IMG/VR virus record: IMGVR_UViG_2627853765_000006
Span: 1 to 9,135 of that record
DNA: 9,135 bases
Strand: one strand, 5' to 3'
Source of the DNA: a virus
Lineage: Duplodnaviria; Heunggongvirae; Uroviricota; Caudoviricetes
How positions within the stretch are numbered: position 1 is the stretch's first letter; each line of letters begins with the position of its first letter. Of the stretch, positions 1-9,135 are shown piece by piece. Made by a program: the position numbers and the translations under genes. The notes beneath the pieces were generated by a model. The model did no database searches. It saw only the letters and a list, made by a program, of their open reading frames with translations, and was not told where the DNA came from.

Positions 1-1254
1 ATGCTGGAACAAATGGGCATTGCCGCGAAGCAAGCCTCGTATAAATTAGCGCAACTCTCCAGCCGCGAAAAAAATCGCGTGCTGGAAAAAATCGCCGATG
101 AACTGGAAGCACAAAGCGAAATCATCCTCAACGCTAACGCCCAGGATGTTGCTGACGCGCGAGCCAATGGCCTTAGCGAAGCGATGCTTGACCGTCTGGC
201 ACTGACGCCCGCACGGCTGAAAGGCATTGCCGACGATGTACGTCAGGTGTGCAACCTCGCCGATCCGGTGGGGCAGGTAATCGATGGCGGCGTACTGGAC
301 AGCGGCCTGCGTCTTGAGCGTCGTCGCGTACCGCTGGGGGTTATTGGCGTGATTTATGAAGCGCGCCCGAACGTGACGGTTGATGTCGCTTCGCTGTGCC
401 TGAAAACCGGTAATGCGGTGATCCTGCGCGGTGGCAAAGAAACGTGTCGCACTAACGCTGCAACGGTGGCGGTGATTCAGGACGCCCTGAAATCCTGCGG
501 CTTACCGGCGGGTGCCGTGCAGGCGATTGATAATCCTGACCGTGCGCTGGTCAGTGAAATGCTGCGTATGGATAAATACATCGACATGCTGATCCCGCGT
601 GGTGGCGCTGGTTTGCATAAACTGTGCCGTGAACAGTCGACAATCCCGGTGATCACAGGTGGTATAGGCGTATGCCATATTTACGTTGATGAAAGTGTAG
701 AGATCGCTGAAGCATTAAAAGTGATCGTCAACGCGAAAACTCAGCGTCCGAGCACATGTAATACGGTTGAAACGTTGCTGGTGAATAAAAACATCGCCGA
801 TAGCTTCCTGCCCGCATTAAGCAAACAAATGGCGGAAAGCGGCGTGACATTACACGCAGATGCAGCTGCACTGGCGCAGTTGCAGGCAGGCCCTGCGAAG
901 GTGGTTGCTGTTAAAGCCGAAGAGTATGACGATGAGTTTCTGTCATTAGATTTGAACGTCAAAATCGTCAGCGATCTTGACGATGCCATCGCCCATATTC
1001 GTGAACACGGCACACAACACTCCGATGCGATCCTGACCTGCGATATGCGCAACGCCCAGCGTTTTGTTAACGAAGTGGATTCGTCCGCTGTTTACGTTAA
1101 CGCCTCTACGCGTTTTACTGACGGCGGCCAGTTTGGTCTGGGTGCGGAAGTGGCGGTAAGCACACAAAAACTCCACGCGCGTGGCCCAATGGGGCTGGAA
1201 GCACTGACCACTTACAAGTGGATCGGCATTGGTGATTACACCATTCGTGCGTAA
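1..1254 (+). CDS. proA: gamma-glutamyl phosphate reductase (glutamate-5-semialdehyde dehydrogenase)
   Basis: 417-aa ORF ending at TAA 1252-1254; translation ([43 protein letters not shown]...) matches enterobacterial ProA as I recall it, and the gene lies immediately upstream of thrW as in E. coli. Confidence 0.95.
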
Positions 1255-1368: not shown

Positions 1369-1444
1369 GCCGATATAGCTCAGTTGGTAGAGCAGCGCAT
1401 TCGTAATGCGAAGGTCGTAGGTTCGACTCCTATTATCGGCACCA
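1369..1444 (+). tRNA. thrW: tRNA-Thr (anticodon CGT)
   Basis: 76-nt sequence GCCGATATAGCTCAGTTGGTAGAGCAGCGCATTCGTAATGCGAAGGTCGTAGGTTCGACTCCTATTATCGGCACCA with cloverleaf-compatible arms, anticodon CGT at 1402-1404 and 3' CCA. Confidence 0.92.
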
Positions 1445-1458
1445 TTTAAATCAATAAG

Positions 1459-1930
1459 TTACACATCATTAGTACGTTCCTTATTTCTTGACTGGGACAA
1501 ATTTGGGACCGATGGGTTCAGAATCGAGTCTATTTGCCGTGCGTGTTCGGTAAGGTGATTAGGTGCGAGGTGAGCATATCGACGAACCATTTCGATAGAC
1601 TCCCAGCCTCCCATTTCCTGTAACACTGATAACGGGACTCCGGCCTGAACCAGCCAACTTGCCCAGGTGTGTCTCAAGTCGTGAAATCTGAAATCATCAA
1701 TACCTGCTCGTCTCAGCGCCGCTTTCCAGGCTGTGTTTGCGTCATACCGCATCTTCCTGACTGTTGGCGCTTTCGTTCCGTCTGGTTTGGTACAGCTTTC
1801 CTTATACACAAATACCCAACGGTGATGATTCCCGATTTGTTTTTTCAATACGCGACATGCAGTATCATTCAGCGCAACGCCAATTGCGCGGTTTGATTTA
1901 CTCTCTTCCGGGTTTATCCATGCCACCCGG
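1459..1930 (-). pseudogene. phage tyrosine integrase, C-terminal catalytic fragment (5' end removed at the IS600 boundary)
   Basis: Minus-strand ORF with tyrosine-recombinase motifs ([39 protein letters not shown]: HxxR box and catalytic Tyr). The ORF-track start codon at 1960-1962 lies inside the IS, so the N-terminal domain is missing. 3' end is 14 bp from thrW, as expected for a tRNA-integrated element. Confidence 0.8.
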
Positions 1931-1973
1931 TGAGGTGTACTGGCAATAGCGGACACTACCATTTGTTCTTTTT

Positions 1974-2792
1974 TTAAGCAGCCATCTGATGATATTTTTC
2001 CCTGAAGGCTGCCGGGGAGATATTCCCCAGACGAGAGTGACGACGCTGACGATTGTAGAAAATCTCAATGTATTCCCGTATTACTGAGATGGCTTCATCC
2101 CGGTTATTAAAACGATAGTGGCTCAGGCTCTCATTTTTCAGCGTTCCCCAGAAGCTTTCCATCGGAGCGTTGTCGTAACAGTGACCTTTACGCGACATTG
2201 ATGTTTTCAGACCAGACTGCTCCTGTATGACCCGGTAATCGTATGCGCAGTACTGTGAACCTCGATCAGAGTGGTGGATTAGCCCGGCAGGTGGGCGCTG
2301 GCTCCTGAGCGCCATAAACAGGGCTTTACCTGTCAGCTCTTTTGTCATGCGCTCTCCCATGGCGTAGCCGACAATTTCGCACGTATAAACATCTTTGATG
2401 CCAGCGAGGTACAACCATCCCTCCTGTGTGGCAACATACGTCAGGTCCGCCACCCAGACCTGATTTGGTGCTGTAGGAGCGAACGTCTGGTTCAGCAGAT
2501 TTGGCGCAACTGGCAGATTGTGGTTCGGGTTCGTAGTCGCTCTGAACTTGCGTTTCTGCTTACAGCGTAGCCTTAGCTCCTTACGAAGACGTGCCAGTCG
2601 GTCACGACCAACGATGATGCCATTCTCTGCCAGCTCCGTCTGGAGCCGCCGGGTTCCATATGTTTCGCGAGTGCGGATATGTGCCACCTTAATCTCCAGT
2701 TTTAGCCGCTCATCACTTTGTTTTCTGTCTGAGGGTTCATGCTGTACCCAGTTGTAATAACCGCTCCTGGATACACCAAATACCTGACACAT
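1974..2792 (-). CDS. IS3-family transposase OrfB (IS600-like), DDE domain; probably expressed as an OrfAB fusion by -1 frameshift
   Basis: 272-aa ORF with integrase-core motifs (…HSDRGSQY…, …[17 protein letters not shown]…) typical of IS3-family OrfB; lies downstream of orfA inside the IS. Confidence 0.85.
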
Positions 2793-2827
2793 CGCTTCAA
2801 TGGGAAATTGTTGTCGCCATTGTTCGA

Positions 2828-3130
2828 TTAACGCGTATTTTTCAGCGACTCCTGTGCAAAATACGCTGTTGCTTTTTTTAATATATCTCGCTCAAGGCGA
2901 GCTTCATTTAACGCCTTACGCAGTTGCAGAATTTCAGATTCCAGTTCAGCCACCGTGCGGGAACCAGGAGTACCGAGCCCTTTTCTGGCGGCGGTAACCC
3001 ATTGTCCTAAAGTGCCTTCAGGAAGGGATAATCGGGAAGCGCCTTCACTGATCGAAAGTTGATTTTCAAGAACCGTTCTGACAGCTTCGGCTTTGAACTC
3101 TTTAGAGTAACGTTGGTTTTTTCTGCTCAT
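2828..3130 (-). CDS. IS3-family transposase OrfA (IS600-like), HTH and leucine-zipper
   Basis: 100-aa ORF MSRKNQRYSKEFKAEAVRTVLENQLSISEGASRLSLPEGTLGQWV… matching IS600 OrfA as I recall it; positioned at the IRL-proximal end of the IS. Confidence 0.85.
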   Translation of the reverse strand: MSRKNQRYSKEFKAEAVRTVLENQLSISEGASRLSLPEGTLGQWVTAARKGLGTPGSRTVAELESEILQLRKALNEARLERDILKKATAYFAQESLKNTR

Positions 3131-3194
3131 TATTAGCTCCTTCTGATGCCATTCTATTTCAGGAAGGAGTGTCCGTTAAACTCAGGCTACCTCA

Positions 3195-3434
3195 GCGGTT
3201 ACCCTGGCGACGCGCCTTACGCGTTAACCAGCCTTCTGCTTCCAGCCGTGCGATAGCCGTTCTGACGGTACTCATCCCCGCGCCAATCTGACGGGCAATG
3301 GTTTCAATTGATGGCCAGCACACACCTTCGTCATTACTGAAATCAGCCAGGCGGGCCATAATTGCCACGCTGGATAACTTCATGCCTGATGCAGCGCAAC
3401 CATCCCATACATAGCCGGTTAATTTAGTGCTCAT
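3195..3434 (-). pseudogene. lambdoid replication-initiation protein (O-like), N-terminal winged-helix fragment, truncated by IS600
   Basis: 80 codons (MSTKLTGYVWDGCAASGMKLSSVAIMARLADFSNDEGVCWPSIETIARQIGAGMSTVRTAIARLEAEGWL…) with the C-W-P-S…IA…G-S-RTV…AI..LE..GWL pattern of HTH_36-type N-domains of phage replication initiators. The frame runs into the IS600 end, which supplies the stop (3192-3194). Confidence 0.6.
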
Positions 3435-3443
3435 GACCGACCT

Positions 3444-3782
3444 CTATTTCCCTGAATTTACGACGAAACTGTTCGAGCGGACTGAAGCATTCATGCTCAT
3501 AACCTCCGCGGAGGTAGATAACCCGCTGTGTTTCCGGCTCCCAACGAATGACTCTGACGGGCACTCCGTAGTGATCTTTGAACCAGCGGTTAACTTGTCG
3601 CAAAGGACTGTCTCCTTCTGCCGGTTGAAATCACCCACAGCCCACTCTGCAAAGCTGTGGGTTACAATTTCCCTGTCACCTGGTACATTCACTGCATAGC
3701 AATATTTCACCTTCGCTTTTCCACCCGGTACAGAAAGCGCAATCAGTTGCGAGCGACGGTAGTGTGTTGTTAAACTGTTCAT
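3444..3782 (-). CDS. hypothetical prophage protein, probably frameshifted (protein-like continuation in the -1 frame to 3424)
   Basis: 112-aa ORF whose ATG (3780-3782) overlaps the stop of the upstream CII-like gene (ATGA). Its C-terminal half is Ser-rich and low-complexity, whereas the -1 frame over 3424..3630 reads …[64 protein letters not shown]. Confidence 0.4.
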
Positions 3783-4348
3783 GCGTTAGTTTCTCCACAA
3801 CCAGAAGCAATCGACGCCACGACGCCCGGAGCTGCACACTCGCGGGCGTCATTACTTTCTGAAATGCAAAAAATTTTGTAGACAAGTGCTGCATGCTCCT
3901 GCAGCTTCGAAATTGAGAGATACAGCTCGTCGTTAATTGCTGTCTTCTCATGCGGTTCCACTACACCGTCTTCGATTGCTGAACGAATCTGTTTTGAATA
4001 ACTGCCGATCTGTTCAATGACTTCCAGCAGACGCTGGTTAATATCGGCGTTGTCCACATCCTCGATGTCAGGAAGAGACACAAAGACGCCATTTGCAGAC
4101 TGCGCCACAGCATCAGCAATGAAGTGAGTGCCACCAGCACGCTGTAAAACCATTGCCCATCCCAGCGGGAAAATCTGATCGCCATCTGCACGAAGGCGGT
4201 TGAATAAAGCGTTTTCTGTTACATCGAGCCAGTCAGCCGCTTCAGCGTAACCACCCGGCAACTTTGCGATAGTTTTTCTGACAGCTTTCACGTACCACTC
4301 AGGCTGTTTTTCTATTTTCCAGTGATGCTTACCCACGATTAGCCTCAT
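3779..4348 (-). CDS. phage regulatory protein, CII-like (YdaT-type) downstream of cro
   Basis: 189-aa ORF directly downstream of the Cro-like gene on the same strand, with an N-terminal HTH-like segment ([27 protein letters not shown]). Position and size fit the YdaS/YdaT (Cro/CII-analogue) pair of Rac-type prophages; family assignment is from memory. Confidence 0.55.
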
Positions 4349-4379
4349 CGTTCTGTGGTTAAAAATTGAAAGTGTTCTG

Positions 4380-4580
4380 CTAATCTTTCGGATAGATATC
4401 CGGTCTTAAGTCAGATTTCGTAATTGCACCTGACGTGCATTGCTCAAGTTTTTTAGCCAGCACAAAACTGGCTTTTTTATAGCCATTGAAAACCAGCCGT
4501 AAGTAGCCTTGTGTTGAGCCAACTTTTCCGGCCAACTCACCCTGCTGTTCTTTGGTTAAAGAGTCCCAATACGCTTTCAT
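4380..4580 (-). CDS. Cro-like HTH regulator (YdaS-like)
   Basis: Preferred start is the ATG at 4578-4580, preceded by GGAGG about 10 nt upstream; the longer ORF-track version (to 4883) runs antisense through cI. The 66-aa product MKAYWDSLTKEQQGELAGKVGSTQGYLRLVFNGYKKASFVLAKKLEQCTSGAITKSDLRPDIYPKD has an HTH and the C-terminal RPD(I/V) motif of YdaS-type Cro proteins; divergent from cI. Confidence 0.65.
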   Translation of the reverse strand: MKAYWDSLTKEQQGELAGKVGSTQGYLRLVFNGYKKASFVLAKKLEQCTSGAITKSDLRPDIYPKD

Positions 4581-4583
4581 ACA

Positions 4584-4656
4584 ATATGTACCTCCAGCGT
4601 ACATATTACATGATTGAAATGAACCTTCACGATACTTGTACCTTAGCGGTACAAGG
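4584..4656. promoter_or_regulatory. OR-like operator/promoter region: two 23-bp palindromic operators (9-5-9) between divergent cI and cro
   Basis: O1 4584-4606 ATATGTACC-tccag-CGTACATAT and O2 4634-4656 ACTTGTACC-ttagc-GGTACAAGG; half-site consensus A(T/C)(A/T)TGTACC; centres 50 bp apart. O1 overlaps a minus-strand TAATAT -10 upstream of cro; O2 overlaps a TTGTAC -35-like element, with TTTAAT (4658-4663) just before the cI ATG, suggesting a leaderless cI transcript. Confidence 0.5.
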
Positions 4657-4670
4657 GTTTTAATTTCGTT

Positions 4671-5345
4671 ATGAAAACAATCCATGACATCCGGCGGTCT
4701 AACGCCAGAAAACTGAGAGATGGTGTTGGCGGGAATTCTTCCTTTGCCACTATGATTGATCGCGAGCCAACCCAGACCAGCAGGTTTATGGGAGATGGTG
4801 CTACTAAAAATATCGGTGACAGCATGGCACGACACATTGAAAAATGTTTCGACCTGCCTATCGGATGGCTCGATCAAGAACACCAGACAACGAACATCAC
4901 AAAAAAACCTGATGTTTCAATCACTAACAAACAAATAACGTTAGTCCCTGTCATATCATGGGTACAGGCCGGAGCATGGAAAGAAGTTGGCTATTCTGAG
5001 GTTGATTTGAGCACAGCAGAAACTTATCCCTGCCCTGTACCCTGTGGCGAAATGACTTATATCTTGCGGGTGATTGGTGATTCAATGATTGATGAGTACC
5101 GTCCGGGAGACATGATTTTTGTTGATCCTGAAGTCCCTGCTTGCCACGGTGACGACGTTATTGCGTTGATGCACGATACAGGCGAAACCACCTTCAAGCG
5201 ATTGATAGAAGATGGAACACAGCGTTATCTCAAAGCATTACACCCAAACTGGCCTGAGCCCTACATTAAGATTAACGGTAATTGCTCTATAATTGGCACT
5301 GTGATTTTCTCGGGAAAACCAAGAAGATACAAAATAAAGGCCTAA
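4671..5345 (+). CDS. CI-like phage repressor with C-terminal S24 (LexA-type) autopeptidase domain
   Basis: 224-aa ORF with an N-terminal HTH-like region (…IGDSMARHIEKCFDLPIGWLD) and a C-terminal S24 domain carrying the Ser (GDSM) and Lys (TFKRL) dyad; divergent from the cro-like gene across the operators. Confidence 0.85.
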   Translation: MKTIHDIRRSNARKLRDGVGGNSSFATMIDREPTQTSRFMGDGATKNIGDSMARHIEKCFDLPIGWLDQEHQTTNITKKPDVSITNKQITLVPVISWVQAGAWKEVGYSEVDLSTAETYPCPVPCGEMTYILRVIGDSMIDEYRPGDMIFVDPEVPACHGDDVIALMHDTGETTFKRLIEDGTQRYLKALHPNWPEPYIKINGNCSIIGTVIFSGKPRRYKIKA

Positions 5346-5357
5346 TCAATATTTATG

Positions 5358-5380
5358 AACCTGCTTCGGCAGGTTTTTTT
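5358..5380 (+). terminator. intrinsic (rho-independent) terminator downstream of cI
   Basis: AACCTGC-TTCG-GCAGGTT hairpin (7-bp stem, UUCG tetraloop) followed by a run of 7 T, 13 bp after the cI stop. Confidence 0.75.
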
Positions 5381-5381
5381 A

Positions 5382-5418
5382 TACATTGACAATGTACCCC
5401 ATGGACACACAATGTACC
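5382..5418 (+). promoter_or_regulatory. putative PL/OL-like region: operator-like repeats overlapping a -35 TTGACA
   Basis: Palindrome TACATTGACAATGTA (5382-5396) and two direct copies of ACAATGTACC (5389-5398, 5409-5418, 20 bp apart) sharing the TGTACC core of the OR half-sites; TTGACA at 5386-5391 with a weak -10 CACAAT (5408-5413) after a 16-bp spacer. Confidence 0.3.
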
Positions 5419-5518
5419 AAAACGAAACAACAAACAGGCAGGATGCCCACGAAGTAGCCGCCTGGGGCATATGAAGTCCAAGATGATTCGTTAGCAACAA
5501 AACGCCCATAGGACGCTT

Positions 5519-5531
5519 CGCTCTTTAACAA
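5519..5531 (+). promoter_or_regulatory. boxA-like antitermination motif (rrn/nut type)
   Basis: CGCTCTTTAACAA on the + strand about 100 nt downstream of the putative PL; matches the boxA consensus (rrn TGCTCTTTAACAA; lambda nut CGCTCTTA). Flanked by the inverted repeat GACGCT (5512-5517) / AGCGTC (5545-5550). Confidence 0.45.
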
Positions 5532-5835
5532 TTTGAATATTTTCAGCGTCAATGATCTGTTTAGCTCCCTACAAGTAAATGTAGCGTAGCACCATGATAA
5601 ATCCTGCTAGTGTTTAGTTAAAAATCGCGCGAGAGCAAGAACGATGTGAGGGCAGGCAATACTGATAGTGTTATTGCTATTAGTTTATCAAAAATATTTA
5701 GACGACCCAGATGAATATTTTTAATACATACTCCCCCTAATTTAACAGGAGTAAATGTTGATGAATAACGAGACATCTATACTCAACAATTGTATGATAT
5801 GAACAATTATATAACATAATGTAGGAAAAATAAAA

Positions 5836-5970
5836 ATGGATTGGCATGACCTTATATCAAAGGTAATTATCGGACTTGTTACAGGCTCAATCGCAGCTTA
5901 CTTAACTGCGCGATATGCACTCGGCCGTTATTATAAAGAAAAATGGTGGGACAAAAGAATAGATTTGTAG
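5836..5970 (+). CDS. small predicted membrane protein (44 aa), possibly truncated by IS1
   Basis: ATG at 5836 preceded by AGGA about 9 nt upstream; MDWHDLISKVIIGLVTGSIAAYLTARYALGRYYKEKWWDKRIDL has one hydrophobic helix followed by a basic/aromatic tail. The stop TAG (5968-5970) uses the first G of the IS1 terminus, so the native C-terminus is unknown. Confidence 0.3.
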   Translation: MDWHDLISKVIIGLVTGSIAAYLTARYALGRYYKEKWWDKRIDL

Positions 5971-6024
5971 GTGATGCTGCCAACTTACTGATTTAGTGTA
6001 TGATGGTGTTTTTGAGGTGCTCCA

Positions 6025-6300
6025 GTGGCTTCTGTTTCTATCAGCTGTCCCTCCTGTTCAGCTACTGACGGGGTGGTGCGTAACGGCAAAAGCACTGCCG
6101 GACATCAGCGCTATCTCTGCTCTCACTGCCGTAAAACATGGCAACTGCAGTTCACTTACACCGCTTCTCAACCCGGTACGCACCAGAAAATTATTGATAT
6201 GGCCATGAATGGCGTTGGATGCCGGGCAACTGCACGCATTATGGGCGTTAGCCTCAACACGATTTTACGTCACTTAAAAAACTCAGGCCGCAGTCGGTAA
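6025..6300 (+). CDS. insA: IS1 InsA (transposition inhibitor/DNA-binding protein)
   Basis: 91-aa ORF (GTG start) [43 protein letters not shown]… matching IS1 InsA. Confidence 0.9.
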
Positions 6301-6344
6301 CCTCGCGCATACAGCCGGGCAGTGACGTCATCGTCTGCGCGGAA

Positions 6345-6722
6345 ATGGACGAACAGTGGGGATACGTCGGGGCTAAATCGCGCCAGCGCTGGCTGTTTTA
6401 CGCGTATGACAGGCTCCGGAAGACGGTTGTTGCGCACGTATTCGGTGAACGCACTATGGCGACGCTGGGGCGTCTTATGAGCTTGCTGTCACCCTTTGAC
6501 GTGGTGATATGGATGACGGATGGCTGGCCACTGTATGAATCCCGCCTGAAGGGAAAGCTGCACGTAATCAGCAAGCGATATACGCAGCGAATTGAGCGGC
6601 ATAACCTGAATCTGAGGCAGCACCTGGCACGGCTGGGACGGAAGTCGCTGTCGTTCTCAAAATCGGTGGAGCTGCATGACAAAGTCATCGGGCATTATCT
6701 GAACATAAAACACTATCAATAA
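6345..6722 (+). CDS. insB: IS1 InsB (transposase domain; normally made as InsAB' by -1 frameshift from insA)
   Basis: ORF …[110 protein letters not shown] matching IS1 InsB. The ORF-track start is the first in-frame ATG; the true frame opens upstream within the 3' end of insA. Confidence 0.8.
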
Positions 6723-6737
6723 GTTGGAGTCATTACC

Positions 6738-7074
6738 CAGACGGCGTACCACACAGGAAAAGATCGCAATTGTTCAGCAGAGCTTTGAACCGGGGATGAC
6801 GGTCTCCCTCGTTGCCCGGCAACATGGTGTAGCAGCCAGCCAGTTATTTCTCTGGCGTAAGCAATACCAGGAAGGAAGTCTTACTGCTGTGGCCGCCGGA
6901 GAACAGGTTGTTCCTGCCTCTGAACTTGCTGCCGCCATGAAGCAGATTAAAGAACTCCAGCGCCTGCTCGGCAAGAAAACGATGGAAAATGAACTCCTCA
7001 AAGAAGCCGTTGAATATGGACGGGCAAAAAAGTGGATAGCGCACGCGCCCTTATTGCCCGGGGATGGGGAGTAA
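6738..7074 (+). pseudogene. insC: IS2 InsC (OrfA), N-terminally truncated at the IS1 junction
   Basis: …[111 protein letters not shown] matches IS2 InsC from about residue 10; the apparent TTG start at 6724 and first residues MESLP come from the IS1 terminus. Confidence 0.8.
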
Positions 7075-7937
7075 GCTTAGTCAGCCGTTGTCTCCGGGTG
7101 TCGCGTGCGCAGTTGCACGTCATTCTCAGACGAACCGATGACTGGATGGATGGCCGCCGCAGTCGTCACACTGATGATACGGATGTGCTTCTCCGTATAC
7201 ACCATGTTATCGGAGAGCTGCCCACGTATGGTTATCGTCGGGTATGGGCGCTGCTTCGCAGACAGGCAGAACTTGATGGTATGCCTGCGATCAATGCCAA
7301 ACGTGTTTACCGGATCATGCGCCAGAATGCGCTGTTGCTTGAGCGAAAACCTGCTGTACCGCCATCGAAACGGGCACATACAGGCAGAGTGGCCGTGAAA
7401 GAAAGCAATCAGCGATGGTGCTCTGACGGGTTCGAGTTCTGCTGTGATAACGGAGAGAGACTGCGTGTCACGTTCGCGCTGGACTGCTGTGATCGTGAGG
7501 CACTGCACTGGGCGGTGACTACCGGCGGCTTCAACAGTGAAACAGTACAGGACGTCATGCTGGGAGCGGTGGAACGCCGCTTCGGCAACGATCTTCCGTC
7601 GTCTCCAGTGGAGTGGCTGACGGATAATGGTTCATGCTACCGGGCTAATGAAACACGCCAGTTCGCCCGGATGTTGGGACTTGAACCGAAGAACACGGCG
7701 GTGCGGAGTCCGGAGAGTAACGGAATAGCAGAGAGCTTCGTGAAAACGATAAAGCGTGACTACATCAGTATCATGCCCAAACCAGACGGGTTAACGGCAG
7801 CAAAGAACCTTGCAGAGGCGTTCGAGCATTATAACGAATGGCATCCGCATAGTGCGCTGGGTTATCGCTCGCCACGGGAATATCTGCGGCAGCGGGCTTG
7901 TAATGGGTTAAGTGATAACAGATGTCTGGAAATATAG
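7032..7937 (+). CDS. insD: IS2 InsD (OrfB, DDE transposase domain; normally expressed as InsCD by -1 frameshift)
   Basis: 301-aa [52 protein letters not shown]… matching IS2 InsD; overlaps the 3' end of insC in the -1 frame. Confidence 0.85.
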
Positions 7938-7948
7938 GGGCAAATCCA

Positions 7949-8230
7949 GGAGCGTTCTGGCTCGTTTTGCTGATCATCGCAGGTTGGGGCGGTCTGGTCC
8001 GCTACCTGATAGATGTGAAGCAGAGTAAAGCAACGTGGAGTTGGATAAATGCTCTGGCTCAGATAGTGGTATCAGGATTCACCGGTGTTATTGGTGGCCT
8101 GATCAGCATCGAAAGTGGATTCAGTATTTACATGATTCTCGCGACAGCGGGGATTAGTGGTGCGATGGGTTCGGTTGCACTGACGTACTTCTGGGAACGA
8201 CTGACAGGGGTGAAAAATGCAAAATCTTAA
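7949..8230 (+). pseudogene. phage holin, 5'-truncated at the IS2 right end
   Basis: 93 codons with three hydrophobic segments (AFWLVLLIIAGWGGLV / WSWINALAQIVVSGFTGVIGGLI / FSIYMILATAGISGAMGSVALTYF) and a charged C-terminus; overlaps the start of the lambda R-like endolysin. The first 9 codons of the ORF-track entry (MSGNIGANP) are IS2 sequence. Confidence 0.5.
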
Positions 8231-8473
8231 TCCTCAGCGTAAAGCTTTCCTCGATATGGTGGCATGGTCAGAAGGAACGGATAACGGGCGACAACCGACA
8301 CGTAACCACGGTTATGATATTATTGTCGGTGGTGAACTCTTCACTGATTACTCCGATCACCCTCGCAAACTTGTCACGCTAAACCCCAAACTCAAATCAA
8401 CAGCTGCAGGCCGTTATCAACTTCTTTCACGCTGGTGGGATGCTTACCGCAAGCAGCTTGGGCTGAAAGACTT
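8217..8473 (+). pseudogene. lambda R-like endolysin (lytic transglycosylase), 3'-truncated by the IS911-like element after codon 86
   Basis: MQNLNPQRKAFLDMVAWSEGTDNGRQPTRNHGYDIIVGGELFTDYSDHPRKLVTLNPKLKSTAAGRYQLLSRWWDAYRKQLGLKDF is near-identical to the N-terminal half of lambda R as I recall it; similarity stops at the IS terminus TGAAGTGG (8474). Confidence 0.8.

Positions 8474-9135
<662 letters not shown>

What the first reader, a model, noticed from the sequence alone, without database searches (positions are those of the whole stretch)
1459..8473. thrW-linked lambdoid prophage reduced to three fragments by four different IS elements, with the immunity segment inverted
Phage-derived DNA falls into three blocks: int' (1459-1930, minus strand), an immunity/early block (3195-5969: O', orfX, cII-like and cro on minus; cI and the PL leader on plus), and a lysis block (7949-8473, holin' and R' on plus). 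In canonical lambdoid order int and cI share one strand, and cro/O/S/R the other. Here the middle block is inverted relative to both flanking blocks; flipping 3195-5969 restores the canonical order exactly. Every block boundary is an IS end (IS600, IS1/IS2, IS911) and every boundary gene is truncated, so the locus records successive IS-mediated deletions and at least one inversion.
Basis: partly seen in the sequence, partly recalled or inferred. Interest (0 to 1): 0.45.

Follow-up and report, generated by a model that had tools for sequence, protein, structure and literature searches.

The report
IS-scrambled SfV-like prophage remnant at thrW
This is the wreck of an SfV/SfIV-type prophage next to the thrW tRNA gene of Shigella boydii, cut to three short pieces by four insertion sequences with the middle (immunity) piece flipped; the description is correct, but it is ordinary Shigella genome decay.

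Summary
Downstream of proA and thrW lie three phage fragments: int' 1459-1930 (-), an early/immunity block 3195-5969, and holin'/R' 7949-8473 (+). They are separated by IS600 (1931-3194), IS1 (5970-6737) joined to a 5'-truncated IS2 (6738-7948), and IS911 (8474 onward). Against four canonical relatives (SfIV, SfV, an intact E. coli ECONIH4 prophage, and a thrW prophage contig), the int' and lysis blocks are co-linear and the middle block is reversed. One phage (ECONIH4) matches all three blocks at 99.4%, 97.6% and 100%, so a single ancestor is likely. It is SfV/SfIV-like, not P22-like. The window is 100% identical to a draft contig, and its junction proteins are annotated in Shigella boydii CDC 3083-94. 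At least 12 assemblies show the same fixed orientation, so it is neither an artefact nor a switch. The block-bounding IS600 and IS1 lack target-site duplications, whereas simple insertions in relatives have them. Best model (inferred): IS600 copies in int and in O recombined and inverted the DNA between them, then one IS1-adjacent deletion of about 10 kb removed both missing segments. The reciprocal junction was not found. Only cI, cro, the cII-like gene and a DUF4222 gene remain intact. This is a known kind of event and of low interest.

The parts
1..1254 (+). proA (417 aa, complete); chromosomal anchor
   Evidence: ORF; annotated as proA in relatives; Aldedh Pfam in gene tables
1369..1444 (+). 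thrW, tRNA-Thr(CGT). Its 3' 46 nt (1399-1444) are the att core shared with SfIV/SfV attP, so this is attL
1459..1930 (-). int': the 3' part of an SfV-type integrase gene (last 156 of 387 codons), cut by IS600. The chimeric ORF 1459-1962 takes its start from IS600
   Evidence: Pfam Phage_integrase E=5.6e-32; 97.7% to SfIV and 99.4% to ECONIH4
1931..3194 (-). IS600, complete (1264 bp; orfA 2828-3130, orfB 1974-2792). Flanks CGG / GCG, so no 3-bp target duplication: a hybrid or recombinant copy joining int' to O'
3195..3434 (-). O': first 80 codons of the replication-initiator gene (HTH_36 domain). The stop codon is supplied by the IS600 end
3424..3603 (-). DUF4222 gene (59 aa, intact). It overlaps the 112-aa 'orfX' ORF at 3444-3782
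   Evidence: Pfam E=9.6e-18; annotation in ECONIH4
3779..4336 (-). cII-like regulator (ymfL, Phage_CP76 family; 185 aa, intact)
4380..4580 (-). cro-like repressor (ymfT, 66 aa, intact)
4581..4670 (.). cro-cI intergenic region with palindromes (putative OR/PR/PRM)
   Evidence: SfV annotates the homologous stretch as a putative operator region; inferred
4671..5345 (+). cI repressor (LexA/S24 type, 224 aa, intact; 222/224 identical to ECONIH4)
5346..5969 (+). PL-side DNA: cI terminator 5357-5376, promoter-like site and palindromes 5376-5428, then the first 44 of 198 codons of a hypothetical gene (5836-5969) cut by IS1
   Evidence: the promoter assignment is inferred
5970..6737 (+). IS1 (768 bp, complete), no 9-bp target duplication. 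Left end in the phage gene, right end inside IS2
6738..7948 (+). IS2 lacking its first 120 nt (left inverted repeat, promoter, start of orfA), so immobile
   Evidence: 100% over 1211 of 1331 bp
7949..8230 (+). holin': LydA-type holin with 93 of 101 codons. The first 8 codons are replaced by 9 IS2-encoded codons (hybrid ORF 7922-8230)
   Evidence: relative L007 keeps 89 bp more
8217..8473 (+). R': endolysin gene, first 86 of 158 codons, cut by IS911
8474..9135 (-). IS911 (right end and most of orfB; runs off the window)

Best explanation
The locus is a dead remnant, about 3.8 kb of roughly 40 kb, of one SfV/SfIV-like temperate phage integrated at thrW in a Shigella boydii lineage. Shown: it has three fragments, the two outer ones keep prophage orientation, and the middle one (O'-DUF4222-cII-like-cro / cI-PL side) is inverted. 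The boundaries are IS600, IS1 joined to truncated IS2, and IS911. Inferred history: (1) IS600 inserted into int, and a second IS600 copy in opposite orientation inserted into O after codon 80. (2) Homologous recombination between these inverted copies flipped everything between them (int 5' part, xis, PL genes, cI, cro, O 5' part). This left one hybrid IS600 joining int' to O' without a target duplication. (3) IS2 inserted about 66 bp upstream of the holin gene. (4) IS1 inserted in the PL-side gene and made one adjacent deletion of about 10 kb. After the inversion, that single deletion removes both missing segments at once (rest of the PL genes-xis-int 5' part, the second IS600, O 3' part through Q, and 120 nt of IS2). 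(5) IS911 cut the endolysin gene, and everything to its right was lost or rearranged. (6) A further 89-bp deletion next to IS2 clipped the holin start in this sub-lineage. The element cannot excise, replicate or lyse. Only the cI-cro-cII-like module is intact and might still give immunity.
For: Orientation and identity: searches show the outer blocks forward and the middle block reverse against SfIV, SfV and ECONIH4. One phage matches all three blocks at 99.4%, 97.6% and 100%. The canonical order at thrW in a relative (L023: proA, int(-), cI(-), cro(+), O(+)) is. Source and reality: the window is 100% identical to L014 and 99.98% to CP001063.1. The junction proteins are annotated in S. boydii CDC 3083-94. 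The same arrangement and orientation appear in at least 12 assemblies. Recombinant or deletion junctions: the IS600 flanks are CGG/GCG and IS1 has no duplication. Simple insertions in relatives do carry duplications: IS1 9 bp twice, IS600 3 bp. The middle block was once longer: context-D genomes carry the same block (5 mismatches in 2.25 kb) running past the IS1 cut through three more PL-side genes. Ongoing IS-driven change at this locus: an IS600 x IS600 deletion variant (L006 versus L022), extra IS1 copies, and the 89-bp difference. General principle that inverted repeats give inversions and direct repeats give deletions, in IS-rich Shigella: PMC8072062.
Against: The reciprocal product (int 5' part-IS600-O 3' part) was not found in any fetched genome. 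Protein searches for N-terminal Int fragments and C-terminal O fragments gave none attributable to it. So the inversion partner and the order of events are inferred from parsimony. The context-D block is bracketed by inverted IS911 copies, so its orientation is not independent support. The middle block is less similar to ECONIH4 (97.6%) than the outer blocks (99.4-100%). That is compatible with phage mosaicism but also with a second source. I could not scan the whole source genome for relocated pieces.
Confidence: 0.6

Rival explanations
1. The net inversion came by another IS route. One option is two successive larger inversions using distant IS600 and IS1 copies. Another is a one-step duplicative (intramolecular) transposition of IS600 from int into O, rather than RecA recombination between two pre-existing copies.
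For: The inverted block is now flanked by two different IS types. The locus sits at a larger rearrangement breakpoint: ykgG-F-E to the right are inverted relative to the E. coli K-12 order. Sister strains show IS1- and IS600-mediated reshuffling here. A one-step transposition gives the same end product as the favoured model.
Against: It needs more events, or a mechanism not typical of IS3-family elements, which mostly transpose by copy-out/paste-in (my own knowledge). The outer blocks remain in canonical order and orientation right next to the middle block, which long-range inversions would not be expected to preserve.
Confidence: 0.22
2. The three blocks come from two or more different prophages or loci and were brought together by IS-mediated recombination. 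There was then no in-situ inversion of a single prophage.
For: Shigella genomes hold several lambdoid remnants and are heavily rearranged (PMC8072062). The same int'/IS600 junction lies next to quite different DNA in other lineages (contexts B and C). The same immunity block occurs away from proA-thrW in context D. Identity to ECONIH4 differs between blocks.
Against: A single intact phage carries all three blocks at 97.6-100% identity. The blocks lie in the correct relative order, at the phage's own attachment site. Only one block is flipped, and flipping it restores the canonical map exactly.
Confidence: 0.15
3. The arrangement is an assembly artefact across repeated IS copies, or a reversible site-specific inversion switch.
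For: All block boundaries are repeats, which are classic sources of misassembly.
Against: The arrangement and orientation are identical in at least 12 independent assemblies, including several complete genomes. No invertase gene and no matching inverted repeats flank the block. The flanking IS elements are of different types.
Confidence: 0.02

Closest known systems
Shigella flexneri serotype-converting phages SfV and SfIV (thrW-integrating, lambdoid early region)
   Same: Same integrase type and the same 46-bp thrW att core (97-98% identity). Same cI-cro-cII-like-O module (95.6% to SfIV, 92.5% to SfV over the shared part). Homologous endolysin (91-93%). Same canonical gene order, which the window reproduces once the middle block is flipped.
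   Different: No gtr O-antigen modification genes and no morphogenesis genes survive here. The holin is a different (LydA-type) allele not found in SfIV or SfV. The closest single relative is an E. coli prophage (strain ECONIH4), not a Shigella phage.
int'-IS600 remnant next to proA/thrW in Shigella flexneri host strains
   Same: PMC3306764 (Fig. 2 legend) draws a putative int plus IS600 (and IS629) as conserved host features of the proA-yaiC region. Partial Int proteins of 153-158 aa from S. flexneri fall in the same 90% cluster as the window's int'.
   Different: I did not read an S. flexneri locus base by base, so an identical breakpoint is likely but not shown. The inverted immunity block and the IS1/IS2/IS911 junctions are documented here only for the S. 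boydii lineage.
IS-mediated inversions and deletions in Shigella genome decay
   Same: Recombination between inverted IS copies gives inversions, and recombination between direct copies or IS-adjacent events gives deletions (PMC8072062). The junctions lacking target duplications, and the strain-to-strain variants here, fit this pattern.
   Different: This inversion is small (originally about 7.5 kb) and lies inside a prophage, not at chromosome scale. One of its two IS600 copies has since been deleted, so the usual signature of a matching inverted IS pair is gone.
Defective lambdoid prophages of E. coli K-12 such as e14 (ymfK-ymfT-ymfL)
   Same: RefSeq names the window's homologues ymfK (cI), ymfT (cro) and ymfL (cII-like). 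These are also decayed prophages that keep a repressor module.
   Different: Different integration site and different decay route. No IS-mediated inversion of the immunity region is involved there, to my knowledge.

Membership tests
SfV/SfIV-like thrW-integrating lambdoid prophage | SfV-type tyrosine integrase gene abutting thrW through the shared att core | tested here: met
   Window 1399-1930 is 97.7% identical to SfIV attP plus the int 3' end; the core equals the thrW 3' 46 nt; Pfam Phage_integrase. Only the C-terminal 156 aa survive.
SfV/SfIV-like thrW-integrating lambdoid prophage | Divergent cI / cro-cII-like-O early region homologous to SfIV/SfV | tested here: met
   95.6% over 2345 bp to SfIV and 92.5% over 1748 bp to SfV; Pfam S24, CP76 and HTH_36
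SfV/SfIV-like thrW-integrating lambdoid prophage | Canonical order: int and cI on one strand; cro, O, S and R on the other | tested here: not met
   The middle block is reversed relative to both outer blocks. Order is restored by flipping 3195-5969, so this is a rearranged derivative.
SfV/SfIV-like thrW-integrating lambdoid prophage | gtrA-gtrB-gtr(type) serotype-conversion cassette next to the att site | tested here: not met
   No gtr homology anywhere in the window. That end of the prophage is absent, so it cannot be called serotype-converting.
SfV/SfIV-like thrW-integrating lambdoid prophage | Complete replication, Q, lysis and morphogenesis modules (a functional prophage) | tested here: not met
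   About 3.8 kb of phage DNA remains; O, holin, R and int are truncated
IS600 (IS3 family) | 1264 bp, terminal inverted repeats TGAGGT..., orfA/orfB with DDE (rve) domain | tested here: met
   1931-3194; 99.5% over 1264 bp to a copy annotated as IS600 family; Pfam HTH_Tnp_1 and rve; ends shown
IS600 (IS3 family) | 3-bp target-site duplication of a simple insertion | tested here: not met
   Flanks are CGG and GCG. A simple IS600 insertion in relative L022 has CAG/CAG. Read as a recombinant or hybrid copy.
IS1 | 768 bp with insA/insB and terminal repeats GGTGATGCTGCC / GGTAATGACTCC | tested here: met
   5970-6737; 98.8% to an IS1A family copy
IS1 | 9-bp target-site duplication of a simple insertion | tested here: not met
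   Flanks AGATTTGTA and CAGACGGCG. IS1 copies in L020 and L021 have 9-bp duplications. Read as an IS1-adjacent deletion junction.
IS2 (IS3 family) | Complete 1331-bp element with both inverted repeats | tested here: not met
   Only nt 121-1331 are present (100% identity); the left repeat and the orfA start are missing
IS911 (IS3 family) | Terminal repeat TGAAGTGGTCAAC... and orfB homologous to IS911 | tested here: met
   8474-9135; 99.5% to a copy annotated as IS911 family. The element runs off the window, so completeness was not assessed here; relatives show the full element.
Programmed invertible DNA segment (site-specific switch) | Both orientations present in a population, with a recombinase and matching inverted recombination sites | tested here: not met
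   There is one orientation in all assemblies of this lineage. No invertase gene is present and the flanks are unlike IS elements.

The most novel reading that the evidence does not exclude
The one part of the prophage that stays intact (cI, cro, cII-like, DUF4222) might be kept by selection as a domesticated immunity module protecting these Shigella against SfIV/SfV-type phages of the same immunity. It is preserved in two differently decayed lineages and occurs as an IS-bounded block in hundreds of assemblies. The inversion and deletions would have made it permanent by removing int/xis, replication and lysis functions.
Probability: 0.2. Interest if true: 0.35.

Novelty: already known. Interest (0 to 1): 0.15.

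Why it matters
It matters little beyond annotation. It is a clean, fully resolved example of how IS elements dismantle a prophage in Shigella. It shows that an inversion followed by one deletion can mimic several independent deletions. It also provides junction markers (chimeric ORFs at IS600/int', IS600/O', IS2/holin' and IS911/R') that distinguish S. boydii sub-lineages. If the surviving repressor is active, it could affect susceptibility to serotype-converting phages, but nothing here tests that.

Tried and rejected
(1) I searched for the reciprocal inversion product. A full-length Int query and an N-terminal 232-aa Int query gave no separate cluster of N-terminal fragments of about 235 aa. 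The C-terminal O query gave P0223 (236 aa), which looked promising. Its contigs read through the breakpoint with native sequence, so it is not an IS600 junction.

(2) L023 first looked like a pre-inversion intermediate with IS600 already in O. Its contig end is native O sequence, so I use it only as a canonical-order relative.

(3) Context C (int' near an O 3'-to-Q block) looked like the missing partner. It is instead a lineage with a P4-type island integrated in tandem at thrW and its own rearrangements. Its O breakpoint lies next to an IS66-family element and is 134 bp away from the window's.

(4) I considered the orientation of context D as proof of an old shared inversion. I rejected it as independent evidence because that block lies between inverted IS911 copies.

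(5) An inversion between IS600 in the gp30 homologue and IS600 in O was rejected. It predicts the left end of IS600 next to gp30', but the right end is observed.

(6) The operator motif test for OL/PL was not significant: 3 hits against 2.1 expected.

(7) The E. coli genome collection holds no record with this arrangement (no place covers 80% or more of the query).


Full report
WHAT IS IN THE WINDOW

The window opens with a complete proA (1-1254, 417 aa) and thrW, a tRNA-Thr(CGT) gene at 1369-1444. Everything from 1445 to the end is phage or insertion-sequence DNA. Pfam assigns the following:
- 1459-1962(-): phage integrase.
- 1974-2792(-) and 2828-3130(-): IS3-family orfB and orfA.
- 3192-3434(-): an HTH_36 replication-initiator N-terminus.
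- 3424-3603(-): DUF4222.
- 3779-4348(-): phage CII (CP76) family.
- 4671-5345(+): an S24 LexA-type repressor.
- 7922-8230(+): a LydA-type holin.

CHECKING THE OBSERVATION

I fetched the complete genomes of Shigella phages SfIV and SfV. Both place int and cI on one strand and cro, the replication gene, Q, holin and endolysin on the other. BLAST of the window against them gives:
- 1399-1930: forward to attP plus the int 3' end (97.7% and 97.4%).
- 3195-5535: reverse to the cI-cro-O region of SfIV (95.6%).
- 3746-5492: reverse to the cI-cro region of SfV (92.5%).
- 8226-8473: forward to the endolysin gene (91-93%).

An intact prophage in E. coli ECONIH4 matches all three blocks better than either Shigella phage does: int' 99.4%, the whole of 3195-5969 at 97.6%, and the lysis block 100%. 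It shows the same pattern, with the outer blocks co-linear and the middle block reversed. A contig from another assembly (L023) shows the canonical order at thrW itself: proA, full-length int(-), cI(-), cro(+), O(+).

INSERTION SEQUENCES AND TRUNCATED GENES

- IS600 is 1931-3194, 1264 bp, and 99.5% identical to a copy RefSeq names IS600 family.
- IS1 is 5970-6737, 768 bp, and 98.8% identical to IS1A.
- IS2 is 6738-7948, 100% identical over 1211 of 1331 bp. Its first 120 nt (left inverted repeat and orfA start) are missing.
- IS911 starts at 8474 (99.5%).

Every boundary gene is truncated. Int keeps 156 of 387 residues, O 80 of 313, a PL-side hypothetical protein 44 of 198, and the endolysin 86 of 158. 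The holin keeps 93 of 101 residues; its first 8 are replaced by 9 residues read from the IS2 end. The internal genes cI, cro, the cII-like ymfL homologue and DUF4222 are full length. About 3.8 kb of phage DNA remains.

SOURCE, AND WHETHER THE ARRANGEMENT IS REAL

Exact-protein look-ups with the chimeric junction ORFs found the same arrangement in many assemblies. One draft contig (L014) is 100% identical to the window, and CP001063.1 differs by one mismatch and one gap. The junction proteins are annotated in Shigella boydii serotype 18 strain CDC 3083-94. All assemblies of this lineage show the same orientation. It is therefore neither a misassembly nor a flipping switch.

EVIDENCE FOR MECHANISM

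The IS600 that joins int' to O' has flanks CGG and GCG, so it has no 3-bp target duplication. The IS1 has none either. As controls, simple insertions in sister genomes do have duplications:
- An extra IS1 in L021 has CTAACGAAT twice.
- An IS1 at the IS600/O' junction in L020 has ACCGCTGAG twice.
- An IS600 in a DUF417 gene in L022 has CAG twice.

So the block-bounding IS copies are recombination or deletion joints, not fresh insertions.

The locus is still changing in sister strains:
- L006 has lost the whole middle block by recombination between this IS600 and the DUF417 copy seen in L022.
- L007 and L020 keep 89 bp more upstream of the holin gene.
- L022 has its IS1 joined to other chromosomal genes.

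A differently decayed lineage (context D, for example CP055124) carries the same block with 5 mismatches in 2.25 kb. There it continues past the window's IS1 cut through three more PL-side genes to another IS600. The IS1 boundary in the window is therefore secondary.

BEST MODEL (INFERRED)

IS600 copies in int and in O, in opposite orientation, recombined and inverted the roughly 7.5 kb between them. After that inversion, the two segments now missing lie next to each other. These are the rest of the PL genes, xis and the int 5' part on one side, and the O 3' part through Q on the other. One IS1-adjacent deletion of about 10 kb, running into an IS2 that had inserted upstream of the holin gene, removes both together with the second IS600. 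IS911 then cut the endolysin gene, and the rest of the prophage was lost. To the right, relatives show IS911, a truncated IS66-family element, and ykgG-F-E inverted relative to the E. coli K-12 order. So that edge is also a chromosomal rearrangement breakpoint. This is the standard logic of IS-driven rearrangement in Shigella (PMC8072062).

WHAT COULD NOT BE SHOWN

I did not find the reciprocal junction (int 5' part-IS600-O 3' part).
- Searches for Int N-terminal fragments gave nothing attributable to it.
- Searches for O C-terminal fragments gave only contig-edge partial genes that read through the breakpoint with native sequence.
- Context C, where the same int'/IS600 junction lies near an O 3'-to-Q block, proved to be a lineage with a P4-type island integrated in tandem at thrW and its own inversion. 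Its O breakpoint differs by 134 bp and abuts an IS66-family element.
- The orientation of context D cannot count as independent support, because inverted IS911 copies bracket that block.
- I could not scan the whole source genome, so deletion versus relocation of the missing parts is untested.

COMPARISON WITH WHAT IS KNOWN, AND VERDICT

This is a rearranged, non-functional derivative of an SfV/SfIV-like thrW prophage. It is not P22-like, and it has no surviving gtr genes, so it cannot be called serotype-converting. An int remnant with IS600 next to proA/thrW is already drawn as a host feature in S. flexneri (PMC3306764). IS-mediated inversion and deletion is the recognised mode of Shigella genome decay.

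The only mildly interesting open point is whether the intact cI-cro module is retained by selection for phage immunity. Nothing here tests that.

Noticed in passing
window 7922-8230; L007 3931-4019: Sister genomes (CP026762, CP026872) keep 89 bp more phage DNA next to the IS2 right end, including the native holin start. In the window that DNA is deleted, and a hybrid ORF starts at an ATG inside the IS2 terminal repeat (9 IS2-encoded residues plus 93 holin residues).
   Followed up: partly
L004, L005, L011-L013 at about 10520-13340; L034: In other Shigella lineages the same int'/IS600 junction is followed not by thrW but by the far end of a P4-type integrase island (PerC, pRiA4b ORF-3 and 119-aa genes). 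The junction retains only ATAATAGGA of the thrW core. E. coli O139:H1 P15-25 shows the un-rearranged tandem layout. In L012 the piece carrying int' is inverted relative to proA.
   Followed up: partly
L024, L026-L028, L030, L031 at 7800-15600: The same immunity block (5 mismatches in 2.25 kb) sits between inverted IS911 copies, flanked by yafL/fhiA/mbhA on one side and ecpB/ecpA on the other in E. coli K-12 order. There is no proBA-thrW at that place. It extends through gp32, gp31 and gp30 homologues to a separate IS600 insertion.
   Followed up: partly
window 3195 (O breakpoint); L023 end; L035-L041 starts: Contigs from several unrelated assemblies and metagenomes begin 10-11 nt before, or end 2 nt after, the exact position where IS600 sits in O, yet they carry uninterrupted O sequence. 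This may be a mosaic or domain boundary that breaks assemblies. The cause is unknown.
   Followed up: partly
window 3424-3782: Two overlapping minus-strand ORFs in different frames. The 112-aa ORF (3444-3782) is annotated as a hypothetical protein in SfIV. The 59-aa ORF (3424-3603) has a strong DUF4222 Pfam hit and is the one RefSeq annotates.
   Followed up: no
window 5357-5428 and 4577-4655: Downstream of cI there is a stem-loop terminator (5357-5376). It is followed by a palindrome TACATTGACAATGTA, a second ACAATGTAC, and a TTGACA-16-CACAAT promoter-like site on the plus strand. The cro-cI intergenic region has GTAC-centred palindromes. This looks like an OL/PL and OR arrangement, but the motif count is not above chance.
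   Followed up: partly
right of the window (L025 13800-20300; L019): IS911 is followed by an IS66-family element lacking its first ORF, then ykgG, ykgF and ykgE on the minus strand. That is inverted relative to E. coli K-12 order, so the remnant's right edge coincides with a larger chromosomal rearrangement.
   Followed up: no
protein cluster of window 4671-5345: In the 90%-identity protein collection, the cI repressor is filed in a cluster whose representative and many members are 486-aa cardiolipin synthases. This is evidently a clustering artefact of the database, not biology.
   Followed up: no
window 1459-1962; cluster 1: Partial integrase proteins of 153-158 aa from many S. flexneri assemblies fall in the same cluster as the window's int'. 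This suggests that the IS600 insertion in int at this position is old and shared across Shigella lineages, or that the site is a hot spot.
   Followed up: no
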